From: a virus
Taxonomy: Duplodnaviria; Caudoviricetes
IMG/VR virus record: IMGVR_UViG_3300012922_000008
Coordinates: 1-57,989 of that record
Length of the DNA stretch: 57,989 nt
Direction: 5' to 3' (one strand)
A program made the translations under genes and the position numbers. Below are positions 6,175-55,852 of the stretch, one piece after another (the stretch's first letter is position 1; every line of letters starts with the position of its first letter). The notes beneath the pieces are model-generated. The model was not told the DNA's origin, made no database searches, and was given only the letters and a program-made list of their open reading frames with translations.

Positions 6175-6248
6175 GTTATCGTAGTTTAACGTAAAATACG
6201 AAGCTTGTACCTTCGCAGATGTTGGTTCGAGTCCAACCGATAGCTCCA
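6175..6248 (+). tRNA. tRNA-Thr(UGU)
   Basis: Acceptor GTTATCG/CGATAGC plus T-CCA; anticodon arm CGAAG-CTTGTAC-CTTCG; T arm GTTGG-TTCGAGT-CCAAC. Confidence 0.92.
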
Positions 6249-37086: not shown

Positions 37087-37345
37087 GAGCTTGCATCTTT
37101 GCGTTCATAACTTTCTTTTGAGCATCCAGCTTCAAGAAAGCTTCCTTAACCTCTCGGTCAATATGTTCTTCAACAGTCTCAAGCTCCCCCGCCTCAAATG
37201 CATCATACTGATGCTCAATACCGTCACGGGACAACTTTGCGCGATGAACTTCAAACTTCCCATCATCAAACTGTTTTCCAGTAAGGTAAACATACTCACC
37301 TGTAACCTTCACGCTAACAATTTCACCAGCTTTTAAAGTGCTCAC
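37034..37345 (-). CDS. Hypothetical protein
   Basis: Overlaps the polymerase stop (GTGA coupling). Confidence 0.6.
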   Translation of the reverse strand: MSTLKAGEIVSVKVTGEYVYLTGKQFDDGKFEVHRAKLSRDGIEHQYDAFEAGELETVEEHIDREVKEAFLKLDAQKKVMNAKMQALENQPVEPGEKIDFNVN

Positions 37346-39810
37346 TTTTGCTCTCTGATTTCCGCCCAGGAAGCTCCTGGTGCTCCAATTTTAAATGCAA
37401 TCTTAAACTGAAATCCGCCTAACTGCGGCCACTGCTGCGTCATAGCCTTGGTAAGTTGTTCTTTACATTCTTCTACGAGATGATAAGGTGACGCCACAAG
37501 TAAGCTATCATGCACTTGAACGTTAAGAGTGGCGGGTCTTGGTAATGGCGCGAGAACACACGATACTTTAAGAACATTTTCTTCACTCCATCCAATCCTT
37601 TCGTACATCAAAGCAATCATAGAGCGAATACAGATGTCTGCTCCTGTGCCTTGAAGGATAAACCGCAAACCTTCAGTGTAAGCTTTCTGACTCCACAACC
37701 AACGCTTACGGCTGAATGGATTTCTTAATACTCCATCCTTAATACCTTGATTACCAGTTCTCTCTTGCCACTGAACTGATTTCCAGTTCAGCTTCTTCCA
37801 CATTAGAAGCAAGTCCCTACAATCCTTCTCAGGAACATTGTACTTCATCGCCATCATCTTAGGACCCATACCAGCATCAGCACCGTGGTTCGTATGCTTG
37901 GCCCTATCATACTGCCAACCAGCTTTATCAATCTCGGCTATTGGGATTCCGTAGATTTGATTGGCTAGCCACTTGTGTTCATTGAACCCCGGCTCATTCA
38001 TTCTCCTCAAACGGTCTTCATCATTTGCAAAATAAGCAGCGAGTGTATTTTCCAACGAACTAAAATCAGCTTCAATCCAACACCAGTCAGGATGGTTTGG
38101 GACATAAATATGCTTGGCCTTAGGTGTAATATTCTGCATATTCGGTTCACTAGACGATAACCGCCCAGTAGAAGTGCCGTGCGGAAGAAAGTTCGCATGA
38201 GTCATTCCTTGAGAAATAGAATGAGAATCATCGTCTTGAAGGAAGCCGCTTATAATAGTAGAGAGTGAATTAACTTTACGAAGGATGTCTAAATCAGGAT
38301 TCTTAGTCTTACGAAAGAGACGCTCTAGCGCGTCTTTGTCCGTCGTGAGCTTCTTCGTTTTGGGGTGGAACTGTTCGGGGAGCTGTAATGTGCCGTACAA
38401 ATAGTCAGCAACAACTTTCGGAGAACTCCAGGGGGTAACTCGTTCCACTCCTGGCACGTGTATGTACTTAACAGGCTTTCCACTTTTGCCAAGAGTTCCC
38501 TTTGGCGCAAGTTCACGTACACGGATGGGTTTGTCATATGGCTTCAACTCCTGAGGTAACTTCTCTTCTAGTTCCTTCAACTCTGCTAAGTATTGAATGC
38601 GAAGCTGCTTCAATCTCGCGGGGTCTGTCTTTACACCTACATCGTGCATAAGTTTGCACACTTTTGCCAAAGGGACCTGTGAGTATTTGTATAAATCTTC
38701 CATACCTAATTGCTTGACAAGTGGCCGTAGCTGGAGGTATGACTGGAGTGTAACATCCACATCCCTTGCACAATACAACGCCATATTTTCGTTGTTCAGA
38801 TGTTTCCATGCTGGTTTTTGAGTGAAGATACTAGAGATAAATTCAAGGTCATGCGGACAATCTGGTTGTACCAGATGATGAAGCAACATGATATCCCAGA
38901 GTTGCTTTAAATTATCAAACCTAACTTCATTTCTTTCTAGGAAAGGTATGTCAAATGAGATGTGGTTCTGTCCAACCAGCTCCTCTGCGGTCTTAAATAC
39001 CGCCATAAGAGCGCCAATATAGTTCCCACTCCAAGGGACAACAGTAACATAATAAGGCTTAACAGCAAGCCCGACCATAGTAATTTTATTAGTACGTCGG
39101 TCAGTTTCAATGTCGAAACACAAGACTTTTGCGTTGCAGAAACTAAGCACGTCGTCCACTGTGGGTTGGAGCTGATAATGTTCAGGTGGTACATCTAAGC
39201 CCTTTTTCAAATCAGAGATAGTGGCGGGAATCATTGACTGGTCCCGCATAAGATAACTAGGATGAAGAATCCCAATAACCTTAGGCTTATCTTCTCCGTG
39301 TACTGGAAGTGGAGAACCTCTCCACTTCATTATTCCATCTGTCTTACCAGTAAGTTTTCGTAAAGCTTTATCTCCAATAGCGTCGATACGAGTCCAGGGG
39401 CGGCTATCAAGGAGCGGCTTAACGTGGTTTCTATAGCATTGCTCCACCGCAACCTTCGCATCCGGCTCCGAGATATACTTTCTAGCAGCAGGGTCCGTCG
39501 GGTACAAATTGGCAGGCGGCCTACAATTAATTGTATTGATGATAGTGAGTGACTCACGCTTAATTCCTGCTTTACCCCACAACATGTTCATTACACGACC
39601 AGAGCCTCCAACAAGAGGCTGGCCTTGAGCTGCTTCTTCACGGCCCGGCGCTTCAGCCAAAGCTAATCTAAGTGATGGACCCACTTGTGGTGGGACTAAA
39701 TTCTGCTCCCATCCCTTATGATGTACTTCAACTCCATCTTCATCATACTTAAAATCAACTTTAAGCATGGGACAGCCAGCACATCTATTATCATCAACAC
39801 ACTTAGTCAC
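37342..39810 (-). CDS. polA: Family A DNA polymerase with N-terminal uracil-DNA-glycosylase-like domain and 3'-5' exonuclease
   Basis: UDG family-4 motifs AEAPG..E..G.PLVG.SG, CRPP, HPS; exonuclease FDIET, N..FD, YCARD; polymerase TGRLSS.PNMQN, ADFSSLE, QGTGAD, QVHDS. Confidence 0.95.
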   Translation of the reverse strand: MTKCVDDNRCAGCPMLKVDFKYDEDGVEVHHKGWEQNLVPPQVGPSLRLALAEAPGREEAAQGQPLVGGSGRVMNMLWGKAGIKRESLTIINTINCRPPANLYPTDPAARKYISEPDAKVAVEQCYRNHVKPLLDSRPWTRIDAIGDKALRKLTGKTDGIMKWRGSPLPVHGEDKPKVIGILHPSYLMRDQSMIPATISDLKKGLDVPPEHYQLQPTVDDVLSFCNAKVLCFDIETDRRTNKITMVGLAVKPYYVTVVPWSGNYIGALMAVFKTAEELVGQNHISFDIPFLERNEVRFDNLKQLWDIMLLHHLVQPDCPHDLEFISSIFTQKPAWKHLNNENMALYCARDVDVTLQSYLQLRPLVKQLGMEDLYKYSQVPLAKVCKLMHDVGVKTDPARLKQLRIQYLAELKELEEKLPQELKPYDKPIRVRELAPKGTLGKSGKPVKYIHVPGVERVTPWSSPKVVADYLYGTLQLPEQFHPKTKKLTTDKDALERLFRKTKNPDLDILRKVNSLSTIISGFLQDDDSHSISQGMTHANFLPHGTSTGRLSSSEPNMQNITPKAKHIYVPNHPDWCWIEADFSSLENTLAAYFANDEDRLRRMNEPGFNEHKWLANQIYGIPIAEIDKAGWQYDRAKHTNHGADAGMGPKMMAMKYNVPEKDCRDLLLMWKKLNWKSVQWQERTGNQGIKDGVLRNPFSRKRWLWSQKAYTEGLRFILQGTGADICIRSMIALMYERIGWSEENVLKVSCVLAPLPRPATLNVQVHDSLLVASPYHLVEECKEQLTKAMTQQWPQLGGFQFKIAFKIGAPGASWAEIREQK

Positions 39811-42473: not shown

Positions 42474-42992
42474 CTAAAAACCGTAATTTAAAGCATGTAA
42501 TTTTACCTTTAGATAACGCCATTTGTCGTTCGCCCACCCCTCACGACGGTTAAAAAAGGTATCCAGTTCTAACTCACTTAACCCTTTTAACTTCATCAAA
42601 ACAAAAGACTTATCATCATCATTCAAGTATCCTACAAGCCTGTCAAGAGTCAATTTATCTGATGGACCCTTTTCTTGGTGGGGTATCGTATAATCTGGTA
42701 CTATACTTATCTCCTGTCTTTTGTTATACTTACGGTACACATCAACAATATTCCTTCGCACCACCATATTTACCCAGGTGGTAAACTGCGACCGCTCTGG
42801 TTTAAACGTTCCTAGAGCCTCCCAGACCTCAAGAATGGACTCTCCAATTGCGTCCTCTAAGTGCCTGTATGAAGACGAATTCCGGCATTCAGATTTGACT
42901 ATACTGGTTATGAAGTTAACAAGACCTGTGGAGAATTCATCCACCAGTAGAGGGTCCTTTAGGTAAGCTTCATGGAGTTCATTTAGTTTCAT
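42474..42992 (-). CDS. ECF-type sigma-70-like factor
   Basis: Region 2 'EDAIGESILEVWE....FKPERSQFTTWVNMVVRRNIVDVYRK'; divergent region 4. Confidence 0.85.
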   Translation of the reverse strand: MKLNELHEAYLKDPLLVDEFSTGLVNFITSIVKSECRNSSSYRHLEDAIGESILEVWEALGTFKPERSQFTTWVNMVVRRNIVDVYRKYNKRQEISIVPDYTIPHQEKGPSDKLTLDRLVGYLNDDDKSFVLMKLKGLSELELDTFFNRREGWANDKWRYLKVKLHALNYGF

Positions 42993-53217: not shown

Positions 53218-53375
53218 TTTTGAAAACCTTTCTCTGGGTTCCGTTTTGCCGGAACTGAAAACTCTACCTTCTCACTCTCTTCTTGACACTTTGGACACGG
53301 TTGAGTGTCGTACTTTGCATCTACAATACTCTCAAACCTCCCATGCTTAGGGCATTCAAACTCGAATATTGGCAC
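53214..53375 (-). CDS. FmdB-like zinc-ribbon protein (53 aa, not in ORF track)
   Basis: GTG start; MPIFEFECPKHGRFE...CPKC. Confidence 0.75.
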   Translation of the reverse strand: MPIFEFECPKHGRFESIVDAKYDTQPCPKCQEESEKVEFSVPAKRNPEKGFQN

Positions 53376-53805
53376 GATACACTCCATCTTCAATAGGATT
53401 ATTATACTTCATACCGGGAAACGTATGTTCATATACCCAAGAACTCATCCACCCAAAATCTGGTCCTTCAGGATTACCAACCCCAACTTCAACAATTTTA
53501 CGAGTGTAAGCAAACCCATTAGATTCAATGCTATCCAGCCATTTCCAAAGCTTCTGAGGAATCTTAAATACCTCCCCATACACTTCCCTATGAATATCCT
53601 CAGTAAACCGTAACCCAACCCCGCTACCAATGCTATAAAGAATAGCCCCCGGCAACACAGCCTCTCCAATAAACTCTGCTCTGTATGTAAGGTCAAGTAT
53701 AAACCCACGTTTTAATATGCCATAGACAAATAGATAATCACACACCTTCTCAGGCTCTTGAAGAGATACCTCATTCAAACTCCACGCTGGAATTACTCCC
53801 GTCAT
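53356..53805 (-). CDS. Gamma-glutamylcyclotransferase (AIG2-like)
   Basis: LFVYGILKRG, VYGEVF, LDSIE, WVY. Confidence 0.88.
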   Translation of the reverse strand: MTGVIPAWSLNEVSLQEPEKVCDYLFVYGILKRGFILDLTYRAEFIGEAVLPGAILYSIGSGVGLRFTEDIHREVYGEVFKIPQKLWKWLDSIESNGFAYTRKIVEVGVGNPEGPDFGWMSSWVYEHTFPGMKYNNPIEDGVYRANIRV

Positions 53806-53972
53806 TTATTCACCCACCCATTCAAAACTTGATTCCCGCACTTACAACGCCAGATTGGGAGGTCTAGGTTGTAGTCCACACTATGAGAGATAGAAAAGCG
53901 CAAGTACGCACGCCCCTCACAATGTCCACACTTTCGTCCAATTATAGCGTTCCAAATTACTCTTAACATCAT
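53802..53972 (-). CDS. Small Zn-ribbon protein (56 aa, not in ORF track)
   Basis: AAGGAG RBS; CGHC...WRCKCG; ATGA coupling to the GGCT gene. Confidence 0.6.
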   Translation of the reverse strand: MMLRVIWNAIIGRKCGHCEGRAYLRFSISHSVDYNLDLPIWRCKCGNQVLNGWVNK

Positions 53973-53979
53973 TACTCCT

Positions 53980-54545
53980 TAAAAAGTATCGGGGTGGGTG
54001 AAAAGCCCTCTCGCTCTAATCCACCCCTCGACATTTCCATTTGTTTTAGCGCAACCAGCGGCCAAACTGGTTTGGTTTTAGTCTACTATAGGGTCCACGA
54101 AGGTCCGCTAAGTATTTGTGCGCATATTCACCTACTTGAGAGAACTCAAGCAAATGAAGTCAATCACAGCTATTCACCGCTGTGAATATCAACCCAACAC
54201 AAAGCCTCTAAGAAGTGTGTCCTAGCTCTGCCCTAGTAGACAATTATCTTAAGTCATAGCCATATCCTTGTTTAGAACGGGGTGCCTGAGTATTCCATTA
54301 ATATAAAGCCCTTAACAGAACATCGGAAGTCAGCTCTCAATGGACCGTAGGTCCTCAAGCTTCCCACCTAGCCTCTACACCGCCCACAGAGGGACACGAA
54401 CATACAACCATCAACAACTATACACTAGGAACAACAACCACATAGCGGACTTGGCTCTCACCAAGCTGGCCCGAAAGGGCCACCCACCAATAGTCATCAC
54501 CAGCAGAGTGCGTTAGCATTCTTCGGCAATGTGTTGGGAACTCGT
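53980..54545 (-). ncRNA. Candidate large (~560-nt) structured non-coding RNA
   Basis: Long gap without a convincing ORF in a densely packed operon; about 10 visible helices including long-range ones; ends in a GC-rich hairpin plus U tract on the - strand. Confidence 0.65.
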
Positions 54546-54878
54546 TTATTCAAACATACTCCAAGCTTTATTGTATTCATCATCATTCATTAGACTTGAG
54601 TGGTCAGTTAATTTCTTATTAACCTCAGACTGACATATCCCACCACCACAAATCAAAACTCCCTTGTAGTTCCTTTGTACAGACCTTCCACAATAAAAGC
54701 ACATTAATCCAGGCATTACTTTCCCACTCCCGCCACAAGTTTCACAAACTTGTGAGTTTATTAAGGAGTTAAAGATAGCTTGTCCACTACAAGTAGGACA
54801 GCTTACTGGTTTGACAGTTTTGCCCAACTCTCCATACTCCCATCTCCATGACCAGTCCAGGGTTGATTGAACTTCCAA
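54546..54878 (-). CDS. DnaJ-type zinc-finger protein; start uncertain
   Basis: CPTCSG...CETCGGSG, CFYC. Confidence 0.6.
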   Translation of the reverse strand: MEVQSTLDWSWRWEYGELGKTVKPVSCPTCSGQAIFNSLINSQVCETCGGSGKVMPGLMCFYCGRSVQRNYKGVLICGGGICQSEVNKKLTDHSSLMNDDEYNKAWSMFE

Positions 54879-55852
54879 TTAGACACAAAATCCCCTGGGT
54901 CTTTAACAAGGGACTCAATGCCGTTCATTGCAAGATTGTGCACTTGTGGTTTCCAGCCTTTATTAAATAAACCATAACGCCCAAAAGTTGTCAAATAATT
55001 CAAAAGGTACTTATTTTTGGTAATCAACGCCCTAGCTGCTTTTTGGTTATTCTCATTAATAATACCAATAACTTCCATCTCATCAGCTTGCCATAAGTCT
55101 TGAGCTTTACTATCAACTAAGGCCAATACACCCCTTACAATCTCAAATGCCAAATTCGTAATCCCCGGATGTGATAGCACAGGCGAACTTAGAACTCTAT
55201 ACTCTAATCCATGAGGTGGTAGTCTATACTCTCCAGCTAATCCGTAGTACTCTCGTCGTTTATTACTCTCTAAATGTGCTCCTGCTGCAACAAAGAACAC
55301 TCCAAGAACCGCATCTAACGCTTTCACATAAGGCACAAATTTATTCATTTGAGCTTCAGGAGTCTTGTAATGAGGCCCCCACCCAGACATATGAACATGA
55401 ACTCCATTAAACCTATATCTCAACTTACGCGGGTCCCCACAATCTCTACCTCCCATGTGATAAGCATTATGTGATGGGTCACAGCCTAGAATAACATATT
55501 GTTCAGGAGTCTTCTTCAACACATCAATAGGAATCATCGGAGCGTTATCAAGTACTAATGAAGCTCCATTAGACTTCTCCCAAATACCTTTCAATCCATT
55601 CCTAATTGAATCAACAAGATAAGCTATACATCCATGTGGACGCGCGCCTAGCTCAGCTTGGAATCCATCATTGTAAATTGTAGCGCCATAGTCATTCCCT
55701 TGTTTTAAAACTTCTACTTTAACCGGCTTATCCTTGGGCGGAAGAAACTCAAACGCAGGCAATATCTTCCCATCCTTACTCCTAGAGAATATCTCCGGGT
55801 CTGAACCAAACTCATAATGCCTAAATCGTTGGATACGTGAGAAGTCCTGCAA
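54803..55852 (-). CDS. phiEco32-like COOH.NH2 ligase type 2 (copy 3)
   Basis: GSDPEIF, GCDPSHNAY, HVHM, RREYYGLAGEYR..PHGLEYRVLS. Confidence 0.9.
   Translation of the reverse strand: MQDFSRIQRFRHYEFGSDPEIFSRSKDGKILPAFEFLPPKDKPVKVEVLKQGNDYGATIYNDGFQAELGARPHGCIAYLVDSIRNGLKGIWEKSNGASLVLDNAPMIPIDVLKKTPEQYVILGCDPSHNAYHMGGRDCGDPRKLRYRFNGVHVHMSGWGPHYKTPEAQMNKFVPYVKALDAVLGVFFVAAGAHLESNKRREYYGLAGEYRLPPHGLEYRVLSSPVLSHPGITNLAFEIVRGVLALVDSKAQDLWQADEMEVIGIINENNQKAARALITKNKYLLNYLTTFGRYGLFNKGWKPQVHNLAMNGIESLVKDPGDFVSNWKFNQPWTGHGDGSMESWAKLSNQ

What the first reader, a model, noticed from the sequence alone, without database searches (positions are those of the whole stretch)
53980..54545. Large, multiply pseudoknotted non-coding RNA candidate inside the amide-ligase operon
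Seen: a ~560-nt gap in an arm where genes otherwise abut or overlap. Local hairpins: TGGCCC/GGGCCA 54467-54482; CTTGG/CCAAG 54450-54465, which on the - strand has a GAGA tetraloop closed by U-G; GGACC/GGTCC 54342-54354; TCACAGC/GCTGTGA 54164-54185; CTTGAG/CTCAAG 54135-54150; AACCAG/CTGGTT 54053-54072; and a terminal GGGGTGG/CCACCCC 53991-54027 with a U tract. Long-range pairs: GTCTACTA..GGG 54081-54093 with CCCTAGTAGAC 54231-54241; GTCCGCTA 54103-54110 with TAGCGGAC 54443-54450; CCCAACACA 54193-54201 with TGTGTTGGG 54530-54538; TCCTAG 54220-54225 with CTAGGA 54425-54430. The last three cross the first, implying pseudoknots or alternative folds. Known: phages encode large ornate RNAs of this scale (ROOL and GOLLD classes). 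I cannot match it to tmRNA, RNase P or group I/II intron consensus. Inference: possibly an undescribed large RNA class, and its position among peptide-ligase genes raises the possibility of a functional link.
Basis: partly seen in the sequence, partly recalled or inferred. Interest (0 to 1): 0.9.

Follow-up and report, generated by a model that had tools for sequence, protein, structure and literature searches.

The report
New large structured phage RNA
The 573-base gap holds a real, conserved, elaborately folded non-coding RNA that matches no described RNA family and always sits beside one zinc-finger protein gene in a soil-phage amide-ligase operon; what it does is unknown.

Summary
The finding holds up. 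The gap 53973-54545 is the largest non-coding stretch of the minus-strand arm. It encodes a structured RNA on the minus strand, the same strand as the genes. It folds far better than shuffles (z -5.32; opposite strand -2.35). Nucleotide homologs lie at the same operon position in 16 of 62 related metagenome loci.

Compensatory changes support 43 of 92 pairs in a ~350-nt 5' domain and 27 of 36 pairs in a ~200-nt 3' domain, beating shuffled and slid controls. G-U pairs outnumber A-C by 197:5 and 48:8, which fixes the strand. Substitutions show no codon periodicity.

Rfam 15 gives nothing for the window or for six homolog loci.

All seven local hairpins are confirmed. Only one of the four long-range pairs is conserved, so "multiply pseudoknotted" is not supported.

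A smaller core of the 5' domain recurs in distant operons (ligase 34-37% identical). It always directly follows a DnaJ-type Cys-rich ORF.

Function is unknown. My best guess is an operon-embedded RNA that forms an RNP, as OLE RNA does. There are no expression data. This scan had not noted the RNA on other DNA.

The parts
53987..54543 (-). Whole conserved structured RNA (about 557 nt). It starts 2-3 nt after the stop codon of the Cys-rich ORF and ends about 14 nt before the start codon of the next ORF.
   Evidence: Nucleotide conservation across 11 aligned homologs; nhmmer hits in 16 of 62 loci; MFE z -5.32; strand set by GU:AC counts.
54192..54539 (-). 5' domain (~350 nt): a nested rod closed by long-range helix P1, with one side branch (P4).
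   Evidence: RNAalifold on A3: 92 pairs. 93.5% of cells paired against 84.4% shuffled and 37.5-43.8% slid; 43 pairs with changes on both sides against 20.2 shuffled.
54525..54539 (-). P1 5' strand; pairs with 54192-54206 (closing helix, 14 pairs).
   Evidence: Helix 1: 7 of 14 pairs change on both sides. 9/9 paired in 9 of 10 sequences.
54192..54206 (-). P1 3' strand.
54517..54523 (-). P2 5' strand; pairs with 54210-54217 (7 pairs, one bulge).
   Evidence: Helix 2.
54509..54516 (-). Conserved internal-loop motif CUAACGCA (5' side, between P2 and P3). The ACGC/ACAC core is invariant in all 14 aligned members, including the distant ones.
   Evidence: Invariant columns of A3 and A6; coordinates.
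54216..54225 (-). Conserved internal-loop motif CUAGGACACA (3' side, opposite the previous motif).
   Evidence: Invariant G324 G325 A326 A328 C329 in A3. The same WWGGAYACA motif is seen by eye in L035, L002 and L033.
54503..54508 (-). P3 5' strand; pairs with 54226-54231.
   Evidence: Helix 4: 100% paired, 2 pairs change on both sides.
54436..54495 (-). P4 branch: stem 54483-54495 / 54436-54449 carrying twin hairpins P4a (54467-54482, GGCCC/GGGCC) and P4b (54450-54465, GNRA-type loop).
   Evidence: Helices 5-7. The same twin-hairpin branch appears in the MFE folds of L035, L002 and L033. This is the core of model R2.
54232..54429 (-). Long inner arm: P5 (54413-54429 / 54232-54248), P6 (54392-54409 / 54252-54267) and P7 (54373-54384 / 54279-54290), with a variable tip 54291-54372 that includes hairpin 54342-54354.
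   Evidence: Helices 8-12; 11 of 15 pairs in P5 change on both sides. The arm is much shorter in L035.
54372..54393 (-). Near-invariant motif CCCUCUGUGGGCGGUGUAGAGG (internal loop plus the P7 5' strand). Found only in the window's clade.
   Evidence: Invariant columns of A3; the pattern is present in 13 related loci and the window's own L001.
54266..54288 (-). Near-invariant motif CAGGCACCCCGUUCUAAACAAGG (P7 3' strand plus internal loop).
   Evidence: Invariant columns of A3.
54186..54191 (-). Linker between the two domains. In relatives, ORFs of 68-69, 84 and 144 aa with their own ribosome-binding sites are inserted here.
   Evidence: Alignment A2 columns ~430-940; ORF maps.
53987..54185 (-). 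3' domain (~200 nt). It has two 5' hairpins (54164-54185 and 54133-54152). H1 is 54085-54113 with a UUCGY loop. H2/H3 (54073-54083 / 54030-54039) enclose H4 (54053-54072, loop UUGGCC). H5 is 53991-54027 and encloses H6 (54002-54017, loop GAGAGG).
   Evidence: RNAalifold on A4: 36 pairs, 27 with compensatory changes. 96.2% paired against 70.9% shuffled. The two 5' hairpins were tested. Model R1 finds this domain only in the window's clade: 13 matches in 64 sources.
54546..54878 (-). Cys-rich ORF (110 aa as listed; eight invariant Cys; DnaJ CXXCXGXG-like). It lies directly upstream of the RNA and co-occurs with it.
   Evidence: Pfam DnaJ_CXXCXGXG E 5e-4, below the family cutoff. Invariant Cys in A8. 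An HMM finds it in 22 of 63 loci, the same set that carries the RNA.
54803..55852 (-). COOH-NH2 ligase type 2 gene (349 aa). Its 3' end overlaps the listed start of the Cys-rich ORF.
   Evidence: Pfam PF14395 E 1.1e-9.
53802..53972 (-). 56-aa Zn-ribbon ORF directly downstream, with ribosome-binding site AAGGAG at 53975-53980.
   Evidence: Homologs follow the RNA or an intervening HNH ORF in L013, L015, L017, L018 and L023.
53356..53805 (-). GGACT / gamma-glutamyl cyclotransferase-like gene. In L035 and L002 it is the gene directly after the RNA.
   Evidence: Pfam PF06094 E 4.7e-12; ORF maps.

Best explanation
The gap encodes a previously undescribed class of large structured non-coding RNA, transcribed from the minus strand as part of the phage's amide-ligase operon.

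Shown:
- The RNA has a 5' domain of about 350 nt. A long closing helix (P1-P2) leads to a conserved asymmetric internal loop (CUAACGCA / CUAGGACACA), then P3, then a three-way junction. One branch (P4) carries twin hairpins, one with a GNRA-type loop. The other is a long arm with near-invariant internal loops.
- After a short linker there is a 3' domain of about 200 nt.
- The outer 5' core (P1-P4) recurs in distant operons. The long arm's invariant motifs and the 3' domain are additions of the window's clade.
- The RNA always directly follows one DnaJ-type Cys-rich ORF.

Inferred:
- It is made by read-through of the operon, because no promoter-like or terminator-like site was found at its ends.
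- It is excised at the closing stem of 20 bp or more, as RNase III excises rRNA. That comparison is my knowledge, not a test.
- It acts as a folded RNA in a ribonucleoprotein with the adjacent Cys-rich protein, the way OLE RNA pairs with the neighbouring oapA gene.

What the particle does for the ligase pathway is unknown.
For: Folding: MFE z -5.32 on the minus strand against -2.35 on the plus strand.

Conservation: nhmmer finds homologs in 16 of 62 loci, always downstream of the ligase. Nucleotide identity of the RNA to the window is 58-95%. That roughly equals the ligase gene (56-89%) and exceeds the Cys-rich gene (46-73%) in 7 loci.

Covariation:
- 5' domain: 93.5% of 919 cells paired; 43 of 92 pairs change on both sides; 0 of 500 shuffles reach either value; slid controls give 37.5-43.8% and 12-17 pairs.
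- 3' domain: 96.2% paired; 27 of 36 pairs; 0 of 500 shuffles.
- The two further hairpins: 12 of 15 pairs.

Strand: GU/UG against AC/CA is 197:5 and 48:8.

Not coding: mismatches by position mod 3 are 279/332/325 and 141/163/147, against 1244/701/432 in the ligase gene.

Not a known family: Rfam 15 gives nothing.

Core in distant operons: model R2 hits L031 (E 2e-4), L002 (E 7e-3) and L032/L033 (E 0.058), each at the predicted place and strand. L035, L002 and L033 fold into the same architecture, with z -5.33, -2.28 and -4.59.

Co-occurrence: the Cys-rich ORF is in 22 of 63 loci. R2 finds the RNA directly after it in 20. L022 has only 75 nt downstream, and L035 has the RNA by fold and motifs only. 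None of the other 41 loci has either.

Analogy: the ole gene is embedded in an operon, and ole and oapA almost always lie in tandem (PMC9723947, passages).
Against: - No expression evidence was available, so neither a discrete transcript nor processing has been seen.
- The family is small: about 13 distinct lineages, all uncultivated, with several near-duplicates in the alignments (W/L013/L014, L015/L016, L023/L025). Cell counts therefore overstate the number of independent events.
- The structures were predicted from the same alignments on which the pairs were counted, which favours them against the slid controls.
- The distant hits have weak E-values (7e-3, 0.058, and the calibration is rough), and L035 is missed by the model.
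- No sign of RNA binding was found for the Cys-rich protein: AF2 pLDDT 65 and no structural match with E<=0.001. DnaJ-type zinc fingers usually bind proteins (my knowledge).
- In L002 the P1 3' strand overlaps the start codon of the next gene, which would also fit a cis-regulatory role.
Confidence: 0.8

Rival explanations
1. A cis-acting mRNA element rather than an RNA gene: a very large leader, riboswitch, translational operator or transcript-stabilising insulator. It would control or protect the genes downstream (Zn-ribbon, GGACT) or upstream (ligase, Cys-rich ORF).
For: It lies inside a co-oriented operon, and no promoter-like or terminator-like site was found at its ends. It ends a few bases before a ribosome-binding site. 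In L002 the P1 3' strand covers the start codon of the GGACT gene. Conserved unpaired loops could bind a ligand.
Against: The gene directly downstream differs among relatives. It is a Zn-ribbon ORF in W, L013 and L017; an HNH ORF in L015, L018, L023-L025 and L028; a 166-aa ORF in L019; and GGACT in L035 and L002. Unrelated ORFs are inserted between the two domains in three lineages. At 220-560 nt it is well above the size of known aptamers (my knowledge). No Rfam riboswitch or leader matches.
Confidence: 0.12
2. Two separate RNAs rather than one: the 5' domain and the 3' domain are independent genes that happen to be neighbours.
For: No helix between the domains is supported. ORFs are inserted between them in L015/L016, L018 and L019. 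Distant members L035 and L002 have only the 5' core, and model R1 finds the 3' domain only in the window's clade. L033 has a different structured 3' region (z -4.18).
Against: In the window's clade both domains are present, in the same order, in 10 of 10 loci where the contig covers both, L025 carrying a truncated 5' domain. They diverge at similar rates. GOLLD RNA also has two domains, with genes (tRNAs) in its linker (bioRxiv 10.1101/2024.12.08.627333, passages).
Confidence: 0.2
3. A self-splicing or mobile intron-like element (a group I intron or a relic of one), given the ORFs inserted within it and the HNH endonuclease genes beside it.
For: ORFs lie inside the element at a fixed site in three lineages. 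An HNH endonuclease ORF directly follows it in L023 (PHROG HNH E 1.5e-9), and similar ORFs follow it in L015, L018, L025 and L028 (by eye). It has a GNRA-type loop and is a large structured RNA.
Against: No host gene is interrupted. The upstream ORF ends with its own stop, and the downstream ORF has its own ribosome-binding site and start. Both flanks differ among relatives. No intron family of Rfam matches at E<=10. No P3/P7-type crossing helices were found. The HNH ORFs are better read as free-standing homing endonucleases placed beside a conserved sequence (my knowledge of T4-type phages).
Confidence: 0.02
4. A DNA-level element (replication origin, packaging site or recombination site) whose inverted repeats only look like RNA helices.
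For: Many inverted repeats lie in a non-coding stretch.
Against: 245 G-U pairs against 13 A-C across the two domains make the helices valid on one strand only. The opposite strand folds much less well (z -2.35). The helices are irregular, with conserved loops. There are no iterons or direct repeats in the alignment (by eye).
Confidence: 0.01

Closest known systems
OLE RNA (ornate, large, extremophilic RNA of Bacillota) with its partner gene oapA
   Same: Both are about 600 nt, with intricate secondary structure interspersed with highly conserved nucleotides. Both genes are embedded in a protein-coding operon and sit in tandem with a small protein gene that occurs only where the RNA occurs. For OLE these points come from PMC9723947 (passages).
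   Different: There is no sequence or structure match, since nothing scored against any Rfam family. This RNA is in phage, not in bacterial chromosomes. The partner candidate is a soluble-looking zinc-finger protein, whereas OapA is a transmembrane protein. A promoter of its own and an RNP are shown for OLE and untested here.
[quoted passage not shown]
   Same: Both are large structured RNAs of unknown function encoded by phages. Both have two domains, one universally conserved and one less conserved, and a linker that can hold other genes. In GOLLD these are tRNAs (bioRxiv 10.1101/2024.12.08.627333, passages). Here they are small ORFs.
   Different: No match to any Rfam family. In this RNA the conserved part is the 5' core, not the 3' region. 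It is not near a tRNA island: the only tRNA of the window is at 6175-6248. Nanocage assembly is shown for GOLLD and untested here.
ROOL RNA (rumen-originating, ornate, large)
   Same: Similar size (about 580 nt, recalled). Encoded by phages and prophages. Function unknown, and no protein partner identified (passages).
   Different: No match to any Rfam family. ROOL is described as having multiple pseudoknots and lying near tRNA islands. Here no pseudoknot is supported, the context is an amide-ligase operon, and there is a candidate protein partner.
Group I introns carrying homing-endonuclease ORFs
   Same: Both are large structured RNAs that tolerate ORF insertions at fixed peripheral sites and have HNH endonuclease genes close by.
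   Different: This RNA interrupts no gene, matches no Rfam intron family, and shows no supported crossing helices.

Membership tests
Any described RNA family (Rfam 15, 4227 models; these include tmRNA, RNase P, 6S, group I and II introns and riboswitches by my recollection, and GOLLD, ROOL and OLE) | Covariance-model score at or above the family's gathering score | tested here: not met
   In the whole window at gathering scores, only tRNA at 6175-6245. In the region 53800-54700 at E<=10, three chance-level snoRNA/lncRNA rows with E 2.7-6.8. In six homolog loci (42865 bases) at E<=1, no rows.
Group I intron | Interrupts a host gene whose exons join after splicing | tested here: not met
   The upstream ORF ends at its own stop, and the downstream ORF has its own ribosome-binding site and ATG. 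Both neighbours differ among relatives.
Group I intron | Conserved core with P3/P7 long-range (crossing) helices and a guanosine-binding site | tested here: inconclusive
   The search of all column pairs found no supported crossing helix, but short invariant helices would escape it. No intron model matched.
GOLLD / ROOL | Location beside tRNA islands in phages or prophages | tested here: not met
   The one tRNA gene of the window is about 48 kb away. The feature itself is taken passages.
GOLLD / ROOL | Self-assembly into RNA-only multimeric cages | not testable with these tools
   Needs native gels or cryo-EM. The only lead is a conserved palindromic hairpin loop UUGGCC in the 3' domain, present in 10 of 11 sequences.
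OLE-type operon-embedded RNP RNA (resemblance of arrangement, not homology) | The RNA gene in tandem with a protein gene found only where the RNA is found | tested here: met
   The Cys-rich ORF is in 22 of 63 loci. The RNA lies directly after it in 20 by model R2 and in L035 by fold. L022 lacks downstream sequence. Neither is found in the other 41 loci.
OLE-type operon-embedded RNP RNA | Physical RNA-protein complex | not testable with these tools
   No tool here scores RNA-protein binding. The protein model is of low confidence (pLDDT 65).
Riboswitch / cis-regulatory leader | Constant position upstream of one regulated gene family, with an expression platform | tested here: not met
   Four different kinds of gene follow it among relatives. 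No terminator-like site was found at its end. Only in L002 does P1 cover the next start codon.
Protein-coding gene | A conserved open frame and three-base periodicity of substitutions | tested here: not met
   The longest stop-free stretches are 48-84 codons, on differing strands and frames. Mismatches are 279/332/325 and 141/163/147 by position mod 3, against 1244/701/432 in the ligase gene.

The most novel reading that the evidence does not exclude
The RNA takes a direct part in the chemistry of the surrounding amide-ligase pathway, and is not merely a neighbour. It could be a scaffold or acceptor that presents a substrate to the COOH-NH2 ligases, ATP-grasp enzyme, GATase and GGACT. It could itself be the molecule they modify. 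Or it could be a ribozyme or self-assembling RNA particle working with the Cys-rich protein. Any of these would be an RNA-dependent step in a class of enzymes thought to act without RNA.
Probability: 0.12. Interest if true: 0.95.

Novelty: new variant of a known kind. Interest (0 to 1): 0.8.

Why it matters
Few large, intricately folded non-coding RNA classes are known in bacteria and phages. Those whose roles are understood do sophisticated jobs, such as the ribosome, RNase P and self-splicing introns. Those still unexplained (OLE, GOLLD, ROOL, raiA) have recently shown unexpected architectures, as seen in passages of bioRxiv 10.1101/2024.12.08.627333.

A further class would add a test case, for four reasons:
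- covariation support is strong;
- the RNA is built of modules;
- there is a candidate protein partner;
- the RNA has a fixed place in a phage amide-ligase operon whose own product is unknown.

It also gives a concrete handle on that operon, because any model of the pathway now has to account for an RNA of 220-560 nt that travels with it.

It is found only in uncultivated soil phages, so synthesis of the RNA and protein would be the way in.

Tried and rejected
- Nucleotide search of cultured phages with the 573 nt: no match.
- Cultured phages by tblastn with the ligase: 58 records, all below 60% identity and 25-27% among the 30 rows listed. The one I opened, Pseudomonas phage PA11, has a gap-free cluster with no Cys-rich ORF or RNA. 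The RNA is therefore not a general feature of phage amide-ligase clusters.
- Viral-contig scan with a 15-base motif: 46 stretches, and none of them is a homolog. L064 and L104 are a tRNA-like gene preceded by a chance copy of the motif (by eye). L092 is a 22-base match inside what reads as coding sequence, and R2 did not hit it.
- A 24-base pattern of the 3' domain: 0 matches in viral contigs and 0 in genome contigs.
- A two-motif pattern of the 5' domain: 0 in genome contigs. As written, it fits only the window-type spacing.
- ARAGORN: no tRNA or tmRNA in the gap.
- Sequencing runs: no RNA holder listed; six soil DNA runs, one of them perhaps the source. I did not lay reads, because DNA contigs cannot show a transcript.
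- Cys-rich protein: AF2 mean pLDDT 65.3. Foldseek against the PDB gave no match at E<=0.001. The weak top rows were Anti-TRAP, DnaJA2 and BSD2 zinc fingers at E>1. I draw nothing from this beyond agreement with the sub-threshold Pfam DnaJ_CXXCXGXG hit.
- PHROGs gave nothing for eight small ORFs of the cluster.
- MAFFT plus RNAalifold on the 14-sequence alignment with distant members kept only the GGCCC hairpin. The alignment is not structure-aware, so I relied on single-sequence folds and model R2 instead.
- A kissing contact between CCCUCU (5' domain) and the GAGAGGG loop (3' domain) was considered. Both are near-invariant, so it cannot be tested by covariation.
- A K-turn in the conserved internal loop was considered and dropped, because the 5' side has no GA (by eye).
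- Stop-codon read-through was considered and dropped, because the frame closes again after 10 codons (by eye).
- Literature: five searches found no paper describing an RNA in COOH-NH2 ligase or amidoligase operons. 'amidoligase' + 'phage' + 'structured RNA' gave 0 papers. I saw only listings, except for the two papers read by passages.
- The description of phage amidoligase neighbourhoods by Iyer and colleagues (2009) is recalled, not seen.
- Supplements were not opened.
Full report
WHAT IS THERE

The window is a 57,989-base virus record, estimated 91% complete. From about 34 kb to its end, the genes run on the minus strand.

Counting minus-strand ORFs of 50 aa or more, the stretch 53973-54545 (573 nt) is the largest uncovered gap of that arm. 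The other three gaps of at least 120 nt are 130-201 nt.

The gap has these neighbours:
- Upstream: a 110-aa Cys-rich ORF (54546-54878). Its listed start overlaps the end of a COOH-NH2 ligase type 2 gene (54803-55852).
- Downstream: a 56-aa Zn-ribbon ORF (53802-53972), then a GGACT-type gene (53356-53805).
- Further along the same strand: a GNAT, a second and third COOH-NH2 ligase, a RimK-type ATP-grasp enzyme and a class II glutamine amidotransferase.

This agrees with the neighbouring note of this scan (e1-6282399).

IS IT MORE THAN CHANCE?

- The minus strand of the gap folds to -212.2 kcal/mol, against -177.1 +/- 6.6 for 100 dinucleotide shuffles (z -5.32; none as good).
- The plus strand gives z -2.35, with 3 of 100 shuffles as good.
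- Rfam 15 gives no match in the window except a tRNA 48 kb away. With loose filters on 53800-54700 it gives only three chance-level rows, E 2.7-6.8.
- ARAGORN sees no tRNA or tmRNA there.

RELATIVES

I therefore took an alignment of the ligase with its 15 closest database relatives to the contig collections. This gave 9 distant loci among viral contigs and 52 loci among metagenome contigs.

nhmmer with the 573 nt finds homologs in 16 of 62 loci. In each, the homolog lies on the ligase strand, downstream of the ligase.

Identity of the RNA to the window is 93/95% (5' domain / 3' domain) in L013 and falls to 58/58% in L028. That tracks the ligase gene (89% to 56%) and exceeds the Cys-rich gene (73% to 46%).

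STRUCTURE

5' domain. Ten full-length sequences were aligned (A3). RNAalifold predicts 92 pairs, arranged as follows:
- a closing helix P1 (54525-54539 with 54192-54206);
- P2;
- a conserved asymmetric internal loop (CUAACGCA opposite CUAGGACACA);
- P3;
- a three-way junction. One branch (P4) has twin hairpins. The other is a long arm (P5-P7) with two near-invariant loop-and-stem motifs.

Counted on the alignment:

| Measure | Observed | 500 shuffles | Slid by 1-3 columns |
|---|---|---|---|
| Cells paired | 93.5% of 919 | 84.4 +/- 0.6% (0 reach it) | 37.5-43.8% |
| Pairs with changes on both sides | 43 | 20.2 +/- 2.7 (0 reach it) | 12-17 |

3' domain. Eleven sequences were aligned (A4), giving 36 pairs, 27 of them with compensatory changes. 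Counts:

| Pairs tested | Measure | Observed | Shuffled | Slid |
|---|---|---|---|---|
| 36 pairs | Cells paired | 96.2% | 70.9% | 34.8-44.4% |
| Two hairpins at the domain's 5' end | Cells paired | 85.7% | 66.1% | not quoted |
| Two hairpins at the domain's 5' end | Pairs changing on both sides | 12 of 15 | not quoted | not quoted |

Caveats:
- Several rows are close relatives (W/L013/L014, L015/L016, L023/L025).
- The structures were derived from the same alignments on which the pairs were counted.
- The tool's own notes warn that related sequences can beat shuffles without any structure.

The slid controls and the many distinct pair types per position argue that the signal is real.

STRAND AND CODING

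- In the predicted pairs, G-U/U-G cells outnumber A-C/C-A cells 197 to 5 (5' domain) and 48 to 8 (3' domain). The helices therefore exist only in the minus-strand transcript.
- Mismatches to the window sequence by position mod 3 are flat: 279/332/325 and 141/163/147. The ligase gene gives 1244/701/432.
- The longest stop-free stretches lie on different strands and frames in different relatives.
- This is RNA. It is neither a DNA element nor a hidden gene.

- All seven local hairpins are real and conserved.
- Of the four long-range pairs, CCCAACACA x TGTGTTGGG is P1 (9/9 paired in 9 of 10 sequences).
- The other three are fully paired in 4, 1 and 2 of 10 sequences, and they compete with supported helices.
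- A scan of all column pairs of the joined alignments returned the consensus helices at the top and no convincing crossing or inter-domain helix.
- The RNA is best drawn as two nested domains. Pseudoknots between invariant stretches cannot be excluded.
- The last hairpin is followed by a U run only after a 5-nt spacer, and the scan did not call it a terminator. No promoter-like site stands before the RNA.

MODULARITY

Between the two domains, relatives carry inserted ORFs with their own ribosome-binding sites:
- 68-69 aa in L015/L016;
- 84 aa in L018;
- 144 aa in L019 (PHROG 889, function unknown).

A 127-aa ORF sits between the Cys-rich ORF and the RNA in L015/L016.

An HNH endonuclease ORF directly follows the RNA in L023 (PHROG HNH E 1.5e-9; Pfam HNH_5 E 6.5e-5, below cutoff). 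ORFs that look alike by eye follow it in L015, L018, L025 and L028.

I read these as free-standing homing endonucleases and morons placed at module borders of a conserved sequence. That reading rests on my knowledge of T4-type phages and is not a test.

Because both flanks vary and the flanking ORFs are complete, the RNA is not an intron in a gene.

A WIDER FAMILY WITH A SMALLER CORE

- Model R1 of the 3' domain finds it only in the window's clade: 13 matches in 64 sources.
- Model R2 covers the 5' strands of P1-P3 plus the P4 branch. It finds 21 places in 65 sources, plus one noise hit at E 4.9. These include L031 (E 2e-4), L002 (E 7e-3) and L032/L033 (E 0.058), whose ligases are only 34-37% identical. 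Each hit lies on the right strand, directly after the Cys-rich ORF. The E-values are rough and weak; the placement is what persuades.
- L035 is missed by R2. Its 229-nt gap at the same place folds with z -5.33 into the same plan (long closing helix, P4 with twin hairpins, one further arm) and carries the two loop motifs.
- L002 and L033 fold alike, with z -2.28 and -4.59.
- L033 has a further 426-nt structured stretch (z -4.18) unlike the window's 3' domain.
- Rfam finds nothing in six of these loci at E<=1.

The universal part is therefore P1-P4. The long arm's invariant motifs and the 3' domain are clade-specific additions.

ASSOCIATION

An HMM of the Cys-rich ORF (eight invariant Cys) finds it in 22 of 63 loci.
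- R2 finds the RNA directly after it in 20 of those.
- L022 ends 75 nt after the ORF.
- L035 has the RNA by fold and motifs.
- None of the other 41 loci has the ORF or the RNA.

Phage PA11, a cultured phage with a distant ligase, has a gap-free cluster. The RNA is therefore tied to the Cys-rich gene within one lineage of ligase operons. It is not tied to amide-ligase clusters in general.

Pattern scans found no copy in 185,579 species' genomes, and none in IMG/VR beyond the window's own record and L002. Those patterns fit only the window's clade.

WHAT IT MOST LIKELY IS

It is a new class of large structured non-coding RNA.

By arrangement it is closest to OLE RNA. [quoted passage not shown]

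By host and build it is closest to GOLLD. GOLLD is phage-encoded and has one conserved and one variable domain, with genes in its linker (bioRxiv 10.1101/2024.12.08.627333, passages).

It is a member of neither.

I infer, without a test:
- read-through transcription;
- excision at the closing stem of 20 bp or more;
- action as an RNP with the Cys-rich protein.

The protein itself gave no help. Its model has pLDDT 65 and there was no structural match at E<=0.001.

The main rival is a cis-acting mRNA element. The changing downstream gene and the ORF insertions speak against it, but L002, where P1 covers the next start codon, keeps it alive.

No RNA sequencing run was listed, so expression is untested.

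NOVELTY

There is no Rfam match. Five literature searches found no paper describing an RNA in these operons. Families described but not yet in Rfam, and papers outside the held library, cannot be excluded.

Another note of this scan (e1-5632432, not checked here) reports small RNA hairpins and a retron-like reverse transcriptase in a different phage amidoligase operon. RNA elements in such operons may therefore be a wider theme.

Noticed in passing
L025:3247-3686 compared with L023:2635-3181: L025 is nearly identical to L023 but lacks about 107 nt of the RNA: the 3' strands of P5, P3, P2 and P1, and the first hairpins of the 3' domain. It is either a natural deletion that would unfold the 5' domain or an assembly artefact.
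   Followed up: partly
L023:3182-3454; also L015:2597-2986, L018:6164-6436, L025:3687-3959, L028:3851-4159: HNH endonuclease ORFs of about 90-130 aa sit directly 3' of the RNA in several lineages but not in the window. They are probably free-standing homing endonucleases. Only the L023 ORF was checked against profile libraries.
   Followed up: partly
L015:2274-2480, L016:2382-2591, L018:5712-5966, L019:5735-6169: Unrelated small ORFs, each with its own ribosome-binding site, are inserted in the linker between the two RNA domains. The L019 ORF matches PHROG 889 (function unknown).
   Followed up: partly
L033:6060-6485: A second strongly structured non-coding stretch (426 nt, z -4.18) follows the RNA core in this distant operon. 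It does not match the window's 3' domain model.
   Followed up: partly
window 54060-54065 (hairpin 54053-54072): The loop of this 3'-domain hairpin reads UUGGCC in 10 of 11 sequences and contains the palindrome GGCC. It could make a loop-loop contact between two copies of the RNA. Two GCGC tetrads (near 54120 and 54049) could pair with each other as a pseudoknot. Both are invariant, so neither can be tested by covariation.
   Followed up: no
window 37342-39810 (-): The family A DNA polymerase carries an N-terminal uracil-DNA glycosylase-superfamily domain (Pfam UDG E 6.4e-11) ahead of the exonuclease and polymerase domains.
   Followed up: no
window 42474-42992 (-): A phage-encoded sigma-70 region 2 protein. 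The operon's promoters may therefore not fit the sigma-70 consensus used in the promoter scan.
   Followed up: no
window 54803-54878: The listed TTG start of the Cys-rich ORF overlaps the ligase gene by 76 nt. Relatives begin later (LGKT...), so the true start is uncertain and the two genes may be translationally coupled.
   Followed up: no
L064:3225-3336 (-), L104:9694-9804 (+): A tRNA-like gene with a long variable arm (GGTTCGAATCC T-arm, by eye) is preceded by a chance copy of the CCCTCTGTGGGC motif. This produced a weak false nhmmer hit.
   Followed up: partly
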